From IMG/VR virus record IMGVR_UViG_2724679073_000003: DNA of 64,000 nt; one strand, given 5' to 3'. The DNA comes from a virus (Duplodnaviria > Heunggongvirae > Uroviricota > Caudoviricetes). Made by a program: the position numbers and the translations under genes. The notes beneath the pieces are model-generated. The model did not search any database, was not told the DNA's origin, and worked only from the letters and a program-made list of their open reading frames with translations. Position 1 is the first letter of the stretch, and each line of letters opens with the position of its first letter. Shown here in pieces: positions 13,205 through 14,684 of this stretch.

Positions 13205-13465
13205 AATGTTGACTATGCGCGAAGGTTAATGTGAATAGTTGACTATGCGCGATGTGACTACAGTCAAAAGTTGACTGTAGTCGATTTAACTCCACCAAAG
13301 ATCGACTATGTAAGATATTGTCGGGAGAAACGTTGACTATACGCGATGAAATGGGCCTAAAAGCCATCTCAATAGCGACTTGCAGAATATTGACGCCAGC
13401 AAAAATCCACCAGCGTCAACGAATGTCGCCTATAGTCAACTTCTCGCTATCGCATATAGTCAATA
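13205..13465. repeat. incA-like iteron array downstream of repA (about 8-9 copies, mixed orientation)
   Basis: Repeated GTTGACTATGCGCGA / TCGCATATAGTCAA-type units at 13209, 13239, 13254, 13271, 13301, 13333, 13425, 13447. Confidence 0.75.
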
Positions 13466-14350
13466 TTATGGATTGCGCTTATGGATCTGGAAGCCGATTT
13501 TCCTGCCGTTTTTTATCTCTGAAAATTTAAGATATTCAATAGCTTCCAAATCTTTCATGGCTTTTCTGATAACGCTATTTTGCACGCTAACGGATGATTT
13601 GAGATTAAGCCTCGCTCTAAGGCGCTCAATGCTGACAGGTGCCGGGTTGGCGGGTAGAGCCTCAAAGAATGTATACAGTACCTTGGCTGTCTCTTTGCGC
13701 CCTAGTTTATCCAGCATCTTCAGCTTCAGGATTCGCTTATAGTCAACATAGTAAAGTTCAGATAGCTGTTTCTGCGGCTGGATCTCGATAACATCAAGCT
13801 CGGTATTCAGGCTGCTATATGCCAACAAGTTGACGTTAATGTTATTGAGATGACCTTTTGCCGCCGGGAAGCGGAATTTGACAACTGTCTGCTGAATGCG
13901 TGTCAGAGAGTCATCAATACTTTTACGGAACGCCTTTGAAAGACGCTTACGTGGATAGCCGCATCGATCGGCAAACTCGGAGAATGGCAGGGTGATTATA
14001 CCGTCATCATCAGGTGCATAGTCAAACAACGCGGAGGTTATGCCCACCCACACCTTAAAATCAGTATCCATATCCAGGCGTGGACCATGAATTTCAATTC
14101 CCTCATAGCCTTCCTGCTCAACAATTTTGAGGCTTGATAGTTCTTCAGTTGCGTTCGTTGTGTTTGTTGTAACTGACGATCCGCGACGTAGCGCCACATT
14201 GGTAGATTTTAAGGTTGGCACAAACACACCTAAACGCAACAAAGCGATGGGTTGTATAGTGCTGTTGTTATTGGGCTTCAGGCTGTGGATTTCTCCTGTA
14301 TTTCCTGCAACTTCTTCAACGCTAAGGAAGCCTTTACTTTCTTCCGGCAT
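13466..14350 (-). CDS. repA: RepA iteron-binding replication initiator
   Basis: Shares GPRLDMDTDFK and P(I/V)AL(L/M)RLGVFVP blocks with P1 RepA as recalled; RBS GGAG 9 nt before ATG at 14350; flanked by iterons on both sides. Confidence 0.85.
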   Translation of the reverse strand: MPEESKGFLSVEEVAGNTGEIHSLKPNNNSTIQPIALLRLGVFVPTLKSTNVALRRGSSVTTNTTNATEELSSLKIVEQEGYEGIEIHGPRLDMDTDFKVWVGITSALFDYAPDDDGIITLPFSEFADRCGYPRKRLSKAFRKSIDDSLTRIQQTVVKFRFPAAKGHLNNINVNLLAYSSLNTELDVIEIQPQKQLSELYYVDYKRILKLKMLDKLGRKETAKVLYTFFEALPANPAPVSIERLRARLNLKSSVSVQNSVIRKAMKDLEAIEYLKFSEIKNGRKIGFQIHKRNP

Positions 14351-14427
14351 CGTGGTTTCTCCATGTGTGGCGCGGCCTGACGTCAATTTGGATGGCTGTT
14401 ATCAACAGCTGTGAATATTCAGACTCT

Positions 14428-14529
14428 AAAATCGCGTACAGTCAATGTTTCTGTCGCGTATAGTCAACAATAAATCGCGTGCAGTCAACAATAAATCGTG
14501 CACAGTCAACATAAAATCGCGTATAGTCA
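14428..14529. repeat. incC-like iterons within the origin (5 direct repeats, about 21-bp register)
   Basis: AAATCGCGTACAGTCAA, TGTCGCGTATAGTCAA, AAATCGCGTGCAGTCAA, AAATCGTGCACAGTCAA, AAATCGCGTATAGTCAA. Confidence 0.75.
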
Positions 14530-14559
14530 ATGTTGATCCCATTTCAGGCCAGAAATGAC

Positions 14560-14645
14560 GCGGCTTACAGCGATCCGGGATCTTCTTTGGATCTTACTAG
14601 GTTCTCTTTAGGATCTGTTTATTGGATCTATGCTGTGGATAAGTT
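14560..14645. other. oriR core: five GATC sites and a DnaA box
   Basis: CGATCCGGGATCT...GGATCT...GGATCT...GGATCT followed by TGTGGATAA (complement TTATCCACA). Confidence 0.7.
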
Positions 14646-14684
14646 GAATAAACCGGCCAACATAGCCGGTTAGAAGGAAGGGTA

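What the first reader, a model, noticed from the sequence alone, without database searches (positions are those of the whole stretch)
13205..14650. Replicon swap: RepA and iterons differ from P1 while ParA/ParB/parS look P1-type
The iterons here are TAGTCAA-containing units (AAATCGCGTATAGTCAA), not the P1 iteron I remember (TGTGCTGGAGGGAAA-like). RepA keeps only patchy conserved blocks. ParB, ParA and parS appear P1-type. This mosaic predicts a different replicon incompatibility specificity with shared partition incompatibility.
Basis: partly seen in the sequence, partly recalled or inferred. Interest (0 to 1): 0.4.

Follow-up and report, generated by a model that had tools for sequence, protein, structure and literature searches.

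The report
P1-like plasmid with p0111 replicon

Summary
Twelve copies of a TCGCGTATAGTCAAC-type iteron cluster at 13208-14531, where about 1 is expected by chance. The P1 iteron GATGTGTGCTGGAGGGAAA has no match anywhere in the window. RepA (13466-14350, minus strand) is only 39.5% identical to P1/P7 RepA. ParB is 100% and ParA 99.7% identical to canonical P1, and every ParB box of parS is identical.

The replaced block runs from 12298 to about 14700-14820. It also holds a T5orf172/GIY-YIG gene and the whole origin.

The cassette is not new. Its repA is 98.1% identical to the repA of pO111_2, which published work uses as the p0111 typing reference. RepA is 100% identical to that of phage RCS47. 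About 400 PLSDB plasmids carry the cassette. Published surveys already divide P1-like phage-plasmids into IncY and p0111 replicon types and report repeated switching between them.

The mechanism is inferred by homology. It is a P1-style iteron replicon with a new RepA-iteron specificity, so it should be compatible with IncY replicons while still sharing P1's parS-based (incB) incompatibility. Neither prediction was tested here, and I found no published test.

Verdict: real, correctly read, already known, low interest.

The parts
9894..9976 (-). parS centromere (incB), P1-type: boxB TCGCCA x2, boxA heptamers x4, central IHF site
   Evidence: All ParB boxes are identical to the annotated P1 parS. 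The differences are 4 bases in the IHF-site N positions and the spacer. P7 parS is clearly different.
9981..10982 (-). parB, P1-type (333 aa)
   Evidence: 100% aa identity to P1 ParB and 39.9% to P7 ParB. Pfam PF08775 ParB, 1.6e-44.
10999..12195 (-). parA, P1-type type Ia partition ATPase with N-terminal HTH (398 aa)
   Evidence: 397/398 aa identical to P1 ParA and 57% to P7. Pfam PF18607 HTH_54 plus AAA_31.
12196..12297 (-). par promoter/operator region, P1-identical. The last base of P1 homology, 12297, is the left breakpoint.
   Evidence: The alignment to P1 ends here. P1 annotation places Ppar and the ParA operator in the homologous bases. All 15 sampled plasmids that match only the par half stop at this base.
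12342..12356 (-). terminator-like hairpin with a T-run after the T5orf172 gene, inside the cassette
   Evidence: Consensus scan only.
12364..13173 (-). T5orf172 / GIY-YIG-family gene (269 aa), part of the exchanged cassette and absent from P1 and P7
   Evidence: Pfam PF10544 T5orf172, 27.5 bits against a cutoff of 20, residues 8-85. phrog_2876, plus a partial match to the endonuclease family phrog_681. Annotated as a GIY-YIG nuclease in RefSeq plasmids. Split in pO111_2.
13204..13464 (.). downstream iteron array (incA-like control locus). Four good copies and one degenerate copy lie in inverted orientation at 13208, 13238, 13270, (13300) and 13332, spaced 30-32 bp. Two copies in origin orientation lie at 13426 and 13450, abutting the repA stop codon.
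   Evidence: P1 incA has the same layout: 6 inverted and 3 direct copies, about 31 bp apart, the last abutting the repA stop.
13466..14350 (-). repA, p0111-type iteron-binding initiator (294 aa)
   Evidence: 98.1% nt identity over 885/885 to repA of pO111_2, and 99.3% aa. 100% aa identity to RCS47 RepA. 39.5% to P1/P7 RepA. Pfam Rep3_C and Rep3_N. The AF2 model best matches RctB, RepE, pi and pPS10 RepA.
13733..13747 (+). iteron-like 15-mer inside the repA coding sequence (1 mismatch)
   Evidence: Conserved in the sister replicons L005, L010 and L014. Function unknown.
14399..14418 (.). two DnaA-box-like 9-mers (TTATCAACA, ATATTCACA) between the origin iterons and the repA start
   Evidence: Pattern match with 1-2 mismatches. 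P1 has a DnaA box (TATCCACA) at the analogous end, read directly from the aligned P1 sequence; the P1 record annotates a DnaA site only at the other end.
14432..14531 (+). five origin iterons (incC-like), start-to-start spacing 22, 21, 21, 21 bp
   Evidence: P1 has five iterons at the same place with 21-22 bp spacing.
14572..14628 (.). cluster of five GATC (Dam) sites in AGATCC-type heptamers, the presumed unwinding and sequestration region
   Evidence: 5 GATC in 57 bp against 4 per kb in the whole window. Aligns at 70-80% with the five annotated Dam sites of P1 oriR.
14634..14651 (-). DnaA box TTATCCACA (perfect) plus an adjacent degenerate box, at the outer end of the origin
   Evidence: Aligned with the annotated P1 DnaA site.
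14548..14820 (.). right-hand transition zone. Identity to P1 rises from 60-80% across the origin to 87-93% in the upfA 3' end, and to 97% or more beyond about 14820.
   Evidence: Identity in 30-column steps of a global alignment. The blastn hit starts at 14548.

Best explanation
The window is the maintenance region of an ordinary E. coli P1-like phage-plasmid of the p0111 replicon type. A cassette of about 2.4-2.5 kb (12298 to about 14700-14820) occupies the place of P1's oriR-repA-incA.

The cassette holds:
- a complete P1-style origin: DnaA boxes, five GATC heptamers and five 21-bp-spaced iterons;
- a RepA of the winged-helix Rep_3 class;
- a downstream control array of iterons in both orientations;
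- an extra T5orf172/GIY-YIG gene.

On its left, the par promoter, parA, parB and parS are those of P1 itself.

Inferred mechanism, by homology with P1:
- RepA monomers bind the five origin iterons.
- Together with DnaA they open the adjacent GATC-rich region.
- The downstream array limits copy number by titrating RepA and pairing with the origin (handcuffing).

The iteron sequence and RepA both differ completely from P1's. The replicon should therefore neither titrate nor be titrated by IncY (P1/P7) replicons. The identical ParB and parS should still give incB-type partition incompatibility with P1.
For: Shown by computation:
- Flanks are 99.3% and 96.9% identical to P1 AF234172, with nothing alignable between them except a 59-bp patch.
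- Identity matrix: RepA 39.5% to P1/P7; ParA 99.7% and ParB 100% to P1; 57% and 39.9% to P7.
- The parS boxes are identical to P1's.
- Iterons are highly enriched and clustered. The P1 iteron is absent.
- Iteron number, spacing and orientation parallel P1 incC/incA.
- GATC heptamers and DnaA boxes are retained at 70-80% identity.
- repA is 98.1% nt identical over its full length to repA of pO111_2 (NC_013370). PMC11165635 uses AP010962, the same plasmid by my knowledge, as the p0111 repB reference.
- The rep region 13150-14700 is 100% identical in 9 listed plasmids, with 411 records at 95% or more. The whole block 12298-14660 is at 95% or more in 401 PLSDB records. It is 97.7-98.8% identical in phages RCS47, SJ46, JL22 and phi456.
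- The RepA model (pLDDT 72.7) best matches the iteron initiators RctB, RepE and pi.

Literature:
- JL22 is described as 'repA' (p0111) and gp57 replacing repA (IncY)' (PMC9603915).
- 132 p0111 against 94 IncY elements, and 17 inferred switches, in Salmonella (PMC11165635).
- 63/119 p0111 against 52/119 IncY among P1-like phage-plasmids (PMC10879196).
- SJ46 RepA is 42% identical to P1 RepA (PMC5241659).
Against: - No experiment on this replicon was found. RepA binding to these iterons, handcuffing, and compatibility with IncY are all inferred by analogy with P1.
- The consensus scan found no sigma-70 promoter for repA on the minus strand within or next to the origin iterons. P1-style autorepression is therefore not demonstrated.
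- Pfam Rep3_N scores just below its gathering cutoff (22.0 against 22.4).
- Neither the sequence nor a profile gives a significant match to any solved-structure sequence (all E of 0.14 or more). Global TM-scores to RepE and pi are low (0.23-0.37).
- 'Swap' implies a direction that the data do not give.
Confidence: 0.9

Rival explanations
1. The element is plain P1/P7 (IncY) and the reader simply misremembered the P1 iteron.
For: None after testing.
Against: The annotated P1 iterons are GATGTGTGCTGGAGGGAAA-like and have 0 hits in the window. RepA is 39.5% identical to P1/P7 RepA. Megablast of the rep region finds P1 records only at the upfA edge.
Confidence: 0.01
2. The whole rep-par module was replaced, not just the replicon, so partition specificity also differs from P1. 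One paper states this for RCS47 and SJ46: 'ParA and ParB identical to P7, distantly related to P1'.
For: Comparison with GenBank OP279344.1, which is labelled P1, gave ParA 58% identity, no parB DNA match and a different parS. PMC5241659 makes the P7 claim.
Against: OP279344.1 itself carries P7-type par (ParA 99.5% and ParB 99.4% to P7 AF503408). Against canonical P1 (AF234172, K02380) the par region is 99.1-99.3% identical. ParB is 100% identical, including for RCS47.
Confidence: 0.02
3. The p0111-family replicon is the older resident of the P1-like lineage, or the two types are ancient alleles. On this view P1's IncY replicon is the incoming one, so 'swap into P1' has the direction backwards.
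For: A divergent P1-like contig (L014, backbone about 70% nt identical) has a p0111-family replicon at the same locus. Its RepA is 84% identical, it has the same iteron family, and a T5orf172 gene lies downstream. A second sister replicon (RepA 85%) sits in a different 91-kb contig with a short D6-like stretch. IncY-type relatives also occur outside E. coli P1, in Cronobacter phage JK004 at 77%.
Against: Two or three sister loci are not a phylogeny. No rooted reconciliation was done. The sharp, uniform left breakpoint fits either direction.
Confidence: 0.35
4. The cassette is a recent capture of a RepFIB replicon from a conjugative IncF-type plasmid, that is, a cointegrate remnant.
For: Some depositors annotate the protein as 'RepFIB replication protein A'. 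The RepFIB family is the bulk of the more distant homologues.
Against: RepFIB-family proteins are only 44-49% identical, and nothing lies between 53% and 84%. The closest relatives at 84-85% are all in phage-plasmid-like contigs. No second replicon, transfer genes or IS elements flank the cassette. The origin retains P1-like DnaA/GATC sequence at 70-80%.
Confidence: 0.05

Closest known systems
p0111 replicon type of P1-like phage-plasmids (reference pO111_2; phages RCS47, SJ46, JL22)
   Same: The repA gene is 98.1% nt identical (99.3% aa) to that of pO111_2, and RepA is 100% aa identical to RCS47's. The cassette has the same content (repA plus the T5orf172/'gp57' gene) and lies in the same position between P1-type parA and upfA (PMC9603915).
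   Different: Nothing of substance. The T5orf172 gene is intact here but split in pO111_2. There are a few SNPs.
P1/P7 plasmid replicon (IncY): oriR(incC)-repA-incA
   Same: The gene order and architecture are the same:
- an outer DnaA box;
- five GATC heptamers;
- five iterons with 21-22 bp spacing;
- repA;
- a downstream array at about 31 bp spacing, with copies in both orientations, the last abutting the repA stop codon.
RepA is homologous, with conserved blocks.
   Different: - The iteron sequence is unrelated (TCGCGTATAGTCAAC against GATGTGTGCTGGAGGGAAA).
- RepA is only 39.5% identical.
- The control array has about 7 copies rather than 9.
- There is an iteron-like site inside repA.
- An extra T5orf172 gene lies between the array and Ppar.
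P1 ParABS (type Ia partition, incB) as opposed to P7 ParABS
   Same: ParB is 100% and ParA 99.7% identical to P1. boxA, boxB and the IHF-site consensus positions are identical to P1 parS. The par promoter/operator is P1-identical up to base 12297.
   Different: 4 substitutions in non-consensus positions of the IHF region and the spacer of parS. One ParA substitution (V342 here, F in P1).
RepFIB / Rep_3 iteron initiators (RepE of F, pi of R6K, RepA of pPS10, RctB domains 2-3)
   Same: Two winged-helix domains are predicted. The best fold matches are RctB, RepE and pi (E 2e-6 to 1e-3), and the WH1 domain matches with a target-normalised TM of about 0.6. Pfam gives Rep3_C and Rep3_N. The gene is flanked by iterons.
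   Different: The sequence is only 44-49% identical to RepFIB proteins. There is no detectable sequence match to any solved initiator.
T5orf172-family homing endonuclease genes at recombination boundaries in phages (Barth et al. 2023, PMC10448857)
   Same: A T5orf172-domain gene lies 66 bp inside the left boundary of an exchanged block next to an essential function.
   Different: No target site, nuclease activity or independent mobility was shown. The C-terminal 180 aa are uncharacterised. The gene is always linked to this repA in the plasmid collection.

Membership tests
p0111 replicon type (PlasmidFinder label for P1-like phage-plasmids) | repA at 95% nt identity or more, at near full coverage, to the reference gene of pO111_2 (AP010962 / NC_013370) | tested here: met
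   885/885 nt aligned at 98.1%, 292/294 aa identical. The exact PlasmidFinder entry was not available. PMC11165635 names AP010962 as the p0111 repB reference; that AP010962 and NC_013370 are the same plasmid rests on my own knowledge.
p0111 replicon type (PlasmidFinder label for P1-like phage-plasmids) | Sits in a P1-like phage-plasmid backbone | tested here: met
   Flanks are 97-99% identical to P1 (gp22/23, parAB, upfA-dmt). The first 25 kb of the window matches 90-100 kb E. coli plasmids at 98-99%. C4 RNA, sok and tRNAs are present.
IncY (P1/P7) replicon | RepA near-identical to P1 RepA (K02380) | tested here: not met
   39.5% aa identity. There is no megablast match of repA to P1 or P7.
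IncY (P1/P7) replicon | 19-bp iterons of the GATGTGTGCTGGAGGGAAA type (incC, incA) | tested here: not met
   0 matches in the window at up to 3 mismatches.
Iteron-controlled Rep_3 (winged-helix) plasmid initiators | WH1 plus WH2 domain protein | tested here: met
   Pfam Rep3_C scores 27.3 against a cutoff of 21.1. Rep3_N scores 22.0, just under its cutoff of 22.4. The AF2 model (pLDDT 72.7) has RctB, RepE, pi and pPS10 WH1 as top PDB fold matches at probability 1.00.
Iteron-controlled Rep_3 (winged-helix) plasmid initiators | Tandem direct repeats (iterons) at the origin next to the rep gene, at helical-turn spacing | tested here: met
   Five copies at 21-22 bp spacing, 14432-14531. Enrichment is 14 hits against 1.16 expected.
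Iteron-controlled Rep_3 (winged-helix) plasmid initiators | The Rep protein binds its iterons and this is required for initiation | not testable with these tools
   Needs EMSA or footprinting and mini-replicon assays.
P1-type ParABS (type Ia; incB specificity) | ParA with N-terminal HTH and a deviant Walker ATPase; ParB of the P1 family | tested here: met
   PF18607 2.3e-46 plus AAA_31; PF08775 1.6e-44. 99.7% and 100% identity to P1.
P1-type ParABS (type Ia; incB specificity) | parS with P1 boxB hexamers (TCGCCA), boxA heptamers and a central IHF site. By my recollection of the P1/P7 literature, the boxB sequence separates P1 from P7 specificity. | tested here: met
   All boxes are identical to the annotated P1 parS. 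The P7 boxes differ.
P1-type ParABS (type Ia; incB specificity) | Exerts incB incompatibility against P1 | not testable with these tools
   Needs a plasmid destabilisation assay.
GIY-YIG / T5orf172 homing endonucleases | T5orf172 nuclease domain | tested here: met
   PF10544, 27.5 bits against a cutoff of 20, residues 8-85. Partial match to the endonuclease family phrog_681.
GIY-YIG / T5orf172 homing endonucleases | Presence/absence polymorphism independent of neighbouring genes, or cleavage of the allele that lacks the gene | tested here: not met
   In PLSDB the gene always travels with the p0111 repA: 391 of 404 records cover the whole block, and no sampled record has the gene half of the junction alone apart from a match cut by a record start. 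Cleavage is not testable here.
GIY-YIG / T5orf172 homing endonucleases | C-terminal DNA-binding domain | tested here: inconclusive
   The single-sequence AF2 model is unusable (pLDDT 37.7). Only one diverged homologue is known.

The most novel reading that the evidence does not exclude
The T5orf172/GIY-YIG gene at the left edge of the cassette may be an active homing-type endonuclease. It would cut the IncY allele, or the P1 sequence between Ppar and incA, during co-infection and so drive gene conversion of the whole oriR-repA-iteron block.

This would explain three things: the repeated IncY/p0111 switches along P1-like phylogenies, the single sharp left breakpoint, and the roughly equal frequencies of the two replicon types. 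A plasmid-incompatibility determinant would then be spreading as the hitch-hiking cargo of a selfish nuclease.
Probability: 0.1. Interest if true: 0.5.

Novelty: already known. Interest (0 to 1): 0.12.

Why it matters
The practical value is limited. It tells an annotator that this element should be typed p0111, not IncY. It also shows that rep and par modules assort independently among P1-like phage-plasmids:
- P1 has IncY rep with P1 par.
- P7 has IncY rep with P7 par.
- This element has p0111 rep with P1 par.

These elements are frequent carriers of ESBL and mcr genes. Which of them can coexist in one cell therefore bears on surveillance.

Three small additions go beyond the papers I could read:
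- a base-level anatomy of the p0111 origin and control array;
- the exact breakpoints;
- a correction of a published statement that RCS47/SJ46 partition proteins are P7-type.

The compatibility prediction is still untested experimentally, as far as I could find.

Tried and rejected
- I first used GenBank OP279344.1 ('phage P1 del res del mod') as the P1 reference. It suggested that parA, parB and parS were also replaced. That record turned out to carry P7-type par. I repeated the comparison with AF234172/K02380 and reversed the conclusion.
- NCBIfam gave no family for RepA, P1 RepA or the T5orf172 protein.
- PADLOC gave nothing for the T5orf172 protein.
- Sequence and profile searches of RepA against PDB sequences gave only chance-level hits. 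Only the fold search was informative.
- Single-sequence AlphaFold of the T5orf172 protein failed (pLDDT 37.7), so no fold search was run on it.
- The consensus promoter scan found no repA promoter on the minus strand near the iterons.
- The 274-aa gene next to the sister replicon in L005 is unrelated to the T5orf172 protein.
- I looked for a donor of the cassette outside phage-plasmids and found none. RepA homologues drop from 84-85% straight to 53% (a Proteus plasmid) and then to 44-49% (the RepFIB family).
- AP010962 was not in the collections under that accession. I used its RefSeq twin NC_013370 instead.
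Full report
**What is in the sequence.** Between 9.9 and 15.1 kb the minus strand carries the following, in order:
- a centromere-like site (9894-9976);
- parB (9981-10982);
- parA (10999-12195);
- a 269-aa ORF (12364-13173);
- an array of short repeats (13204-13464);
- a 294-aa repA (13466-14350);
- five tandem repeats (14432-14531);
- a GATC-rich stretch with a perfect DnaA box (14572-14651);
- upfA (14685-15077).

**The repeats are real.**
- TCGCGTATAGTCAAC with up to 3 mismatches occurs 14 times in the 64 kb window, against 1.16 expected. Twelve of the copies lie in 13208-14531.
- The five origin copies are spaced 22, 21, 21 and 21 bp.
- The downstream array has four good copies and one degenerate copy in inverted orientation, 30-32 bp apart. 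Two further copies in origin orientation abut the repA stop codon.
- One more iteron-like 15-mer lies inside repA, at 13733-13747.

**Comparison with P1, and a false start.** The first 'P1' record that megablast offered was OP279344.1. It gave ParA 58% identity, no parB DNA match and a different parS. The record in fact carries P7-type partition genes.

Against canonical P1 (AF234172, K02380) the picture is clean.
- Window 7482-12297 is 99.3% identical and 14548-18235 is 96.9% identical. Nothing between them aligns except a 59-bp patch.
- ParB is 333/333 identical and ParA 397/398.
- Every boxA and boxB of parS is identical. The 4 differences fall in the N positions of the IHF site and in the spacer.
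- P7 ParA and ParB are only 57% and 39.9% identical.
- RepA is 39.5% identical to the RepA of P1 and P7, which are identical to each other. BLASTP gives 42% over 272 aa.
- The P1 iteron is GATGTGTGCTGGAGGGAAA, read from the 14 annotated copies. It has no match in the window.

**Extent of the exchanged block.**
- The left breakpoint is sharp, at 12297/12298. It lies just outside the P1 par promoter/operator.
- The right side is a gradient. Identity to P1 is 60-80% across the DnaA/GATC part of the origin (14530-14670), 87-93% to about 14820, and 97% or more beyond.
- The whole origin therefore belongs to the cassette, not only the iterons. The cassette also contains the 269-aa ORF, which has a T5orf172 (GIY-YIG-related) domain and is absent from P1 and P7.
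- The block is about 2.4-2.5 kb, against about 1.5 kb in P1.

**Architecture and likely mechanism.** Element for element the cassette parallels P1 oriR-repA-incA:
- an outer DnaA box;
- five GATC heptamers;
- five iterons two helical turns apart;
- repA;
- a control array three turns apart with both orientations, the last copy touching the repA stop codon.

RepA matches Pfam Rep3_C, and Rep3_N marginally. A model built on 36 homologues (pLDDT 72.7) best matches the iteron initiators RctB, RepE and pi, and the WH1 domain of pPS10 RepA.

By homology I infer P1-like initiation and copy control. RepA monomers would bind the origin iterons, and DnaA would help open the GATC region. The downstream array would titrate RepA and handcuff the origin. 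None of this was tested. The promoter scan did not find a repA promoter.

**Identity of the cassette.**
- The rep region 13150-14700 is 100% identical in 9 listed E. coli plasmids, and 411 PLSDB records match it at 95% or more. The whole block 12298-14660 is at 95% or more in 401 records.
- It is 97.7-98.8% identical in phages RCS47, SJ46, JL22 and phi456.
- Its repA is 98.1% identical over all 885 nt to the repA of pO111_2, NC_013370. PMC11165635 uses AP010962, the same plasmid by my knowledge, as the p0111 repB reference.

The literature already describes exactly this:
- JL22 has 'repA' (p0111) and an unknown gene gp57 replacing repA (IncY)', and 24 of 55 P1-like elements are p0111 (PMC9603915).
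- Among Salmonella elements, 132 are p0111 and 94 IncY, with 17 inferred changes of type along the tree. The authors remark that the two types 'can theoretically be compatible' (PMC11165635).
- Among P1-like phage-plasmids, 63 of 119 are p0111 and 52 of 119 IncY (PMC10879196).
- SJ46 RepA is 42% identical to P1 RepA (PMC5241659).

**Population picture.**
- A probe spanning the left junction (11700-12900) matches 547 plasmids, and 394 of them cover it fully.
- The rest that were sampled (15 of 15) stop exactly at window base 12297. These have P1-type par joined to something else, presumably the IncY replicon; their neighbours were not inspected.
- No sampled record has the T5orf172 half without the P1-par half, apart from one match cut by a record start.
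- In this collection the cassette is thus essentially always joined to P1-type par through one and the same junction. P1-type par itself occurs with either replicon.
- With P7 (IncY rep, P7 par), three of the four rep-par combinations are seen among the reference elements.

**Origin.** RepA homologues fall from 99% or more (392 plasmid records) to a handful at 84-94%, and then straight to 53% (a Proteus plasmid) and 44-49% (the large RepFIB family).

The 84-85% relatives are informative.
- L014 is a divergent P1-like contig whose backbone is about 70% nt identical. It has the same locus order, the same iteron family, the same origin layout and a T5orf172 gene at 38% aa identity.
- L005 is a 91-kb E. 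coli contig that shares a short stretch with phage D6 but lacks the P1 par flank. It has the same iteron family.

The p0111 family is therefore a long-standing phage-plasmid replicon lineage, not a recent capture from a conjugative plasmid. Whether P1's IncY replicon or this one is the 'original' cannot be decided here.

**The T5orf172 gene.**
- It lies 66 bp inside the left breakpoint.
- It is intact here and split in pO111_2.
- It has almost no diverged homologues.
- Its structure could not be modelled.
- T5orf172 genes have been proposed as homing endonucleases that sit at boundaries of genetic exchange between phages (PMC10448857).

That it drives the replicon exchange is an attractive but untested idea. 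Against it, the gene shows no mobility independent of repA in the plasmid collection.

**Verdict.** However, the feature is the well-catalogued p0111 replicon variant of P1-like phage-plasmids.

The predicted incompatibility behaviour is different for replication and shared for partition. It is sound inference from P1 biology, but it remains untested.

Interest is low. The only mildly novel thread is the possible role of the boundary nuclease.

Noticed in passing
locus L002 (GenBank OP279344.1, 52080-64237): A GenBank record labelled 'Escherichia phage P1 isolate del res del mod' carries P7-type parA, parB and parS. ParA is 99.5% and ParB 99.4% identical to P7, against 57% and 40% to canonical P1. 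Its RepA is identical to that of P1 and P7. Using it as a P1 reference gives a wrong answer for the partition genes.
   Followed up: yes
window 9981-12195; locus L003 (RCS47): [quoted passage not shown] Direct comparison shows the reverse: RCS47 ParB is 100% and ParA 99.7% identical to P1, and 39.9% and 57% to P7.
   Followed up: yes
window 12364-13173 (minus strand): A T5orf172/GIY-YIG-family gene sits 66 bp inside the left breakpoint of the exchanged block. It is split in pO111_2. Its only diverged homologue (38-44% aa) occupies the same position in a divergent P1-like contig (L014). It may be a boundary homing nuclease.
   Followed up: partly
window 13733-13747; L005 6604; L010 1137; L014 6612: An iteron-like 15-mer (1 mismatch) lies inside the repA coding sequence, in the codons for VDYKR. 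It is conserved in three sister replicons whose repA regions are only about 71-77% nt identical to the window. No iteron-like sequence (up to 5 mismatches) lies inside P1 repA.
   Followed up: partly
locus L007/L008 (Proteus mirabilis plasmid contigs), about 5750-5850 and 6900-7300: The nearest replicon outside phage-plasmids (RepA 53%) has iterons of the form GTTGAYGCWAGNCKAT. They share only the GTTGA...CGAT ends with the window's GTTGACTATACGCGAT. A long downstream array alternates two repeat types. This hints that the iteron ends are conserved and the middle sets specificity.
   Followed up: no
locus L005 (E. coli GCA_013513435.1 contig, 91 kb): A sister replicon (RepA 85%, same iteron family, five origin iterons) sits in a different backbone. 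That backbone shares an 81%-identical stretch with phage D6 tail genes and has no adjacent P1 par or T5orf172 gene.
   Followed up: partly
window 18147-20165: The dmt methyltransferase ORF is 672 aa here. Relative to OP279344.1 about 1 kb is missing at about 18380; dmt is 1013 aa there and in pO111_2. P1 AF234172 dmt is 754 aa. This is a variable region.
   Followed up: no
window 3498-3672; 49832-50021; 20839-22601: Rfam finds a sok antitoxin RNA, isrK and the C4 immunity antisense RNA. There are four tRNA genes (Asn, Tyr-like, Thr, Met/Ile-like). The 87-nt Tyr-like one lies between Asn and Thr and scores weakly (41.9 bits).
   Followed up: no
locus L001 (NZ_CP022733.1 pSA186_4): PLSDB/MOB-suite types this plasmid's replicon as 'IncHI1B', although its rep region is 100% identical to the window's. 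That label does not fit a p0111/P1-like replicon and could mislead automated typing.
   Followed up: no
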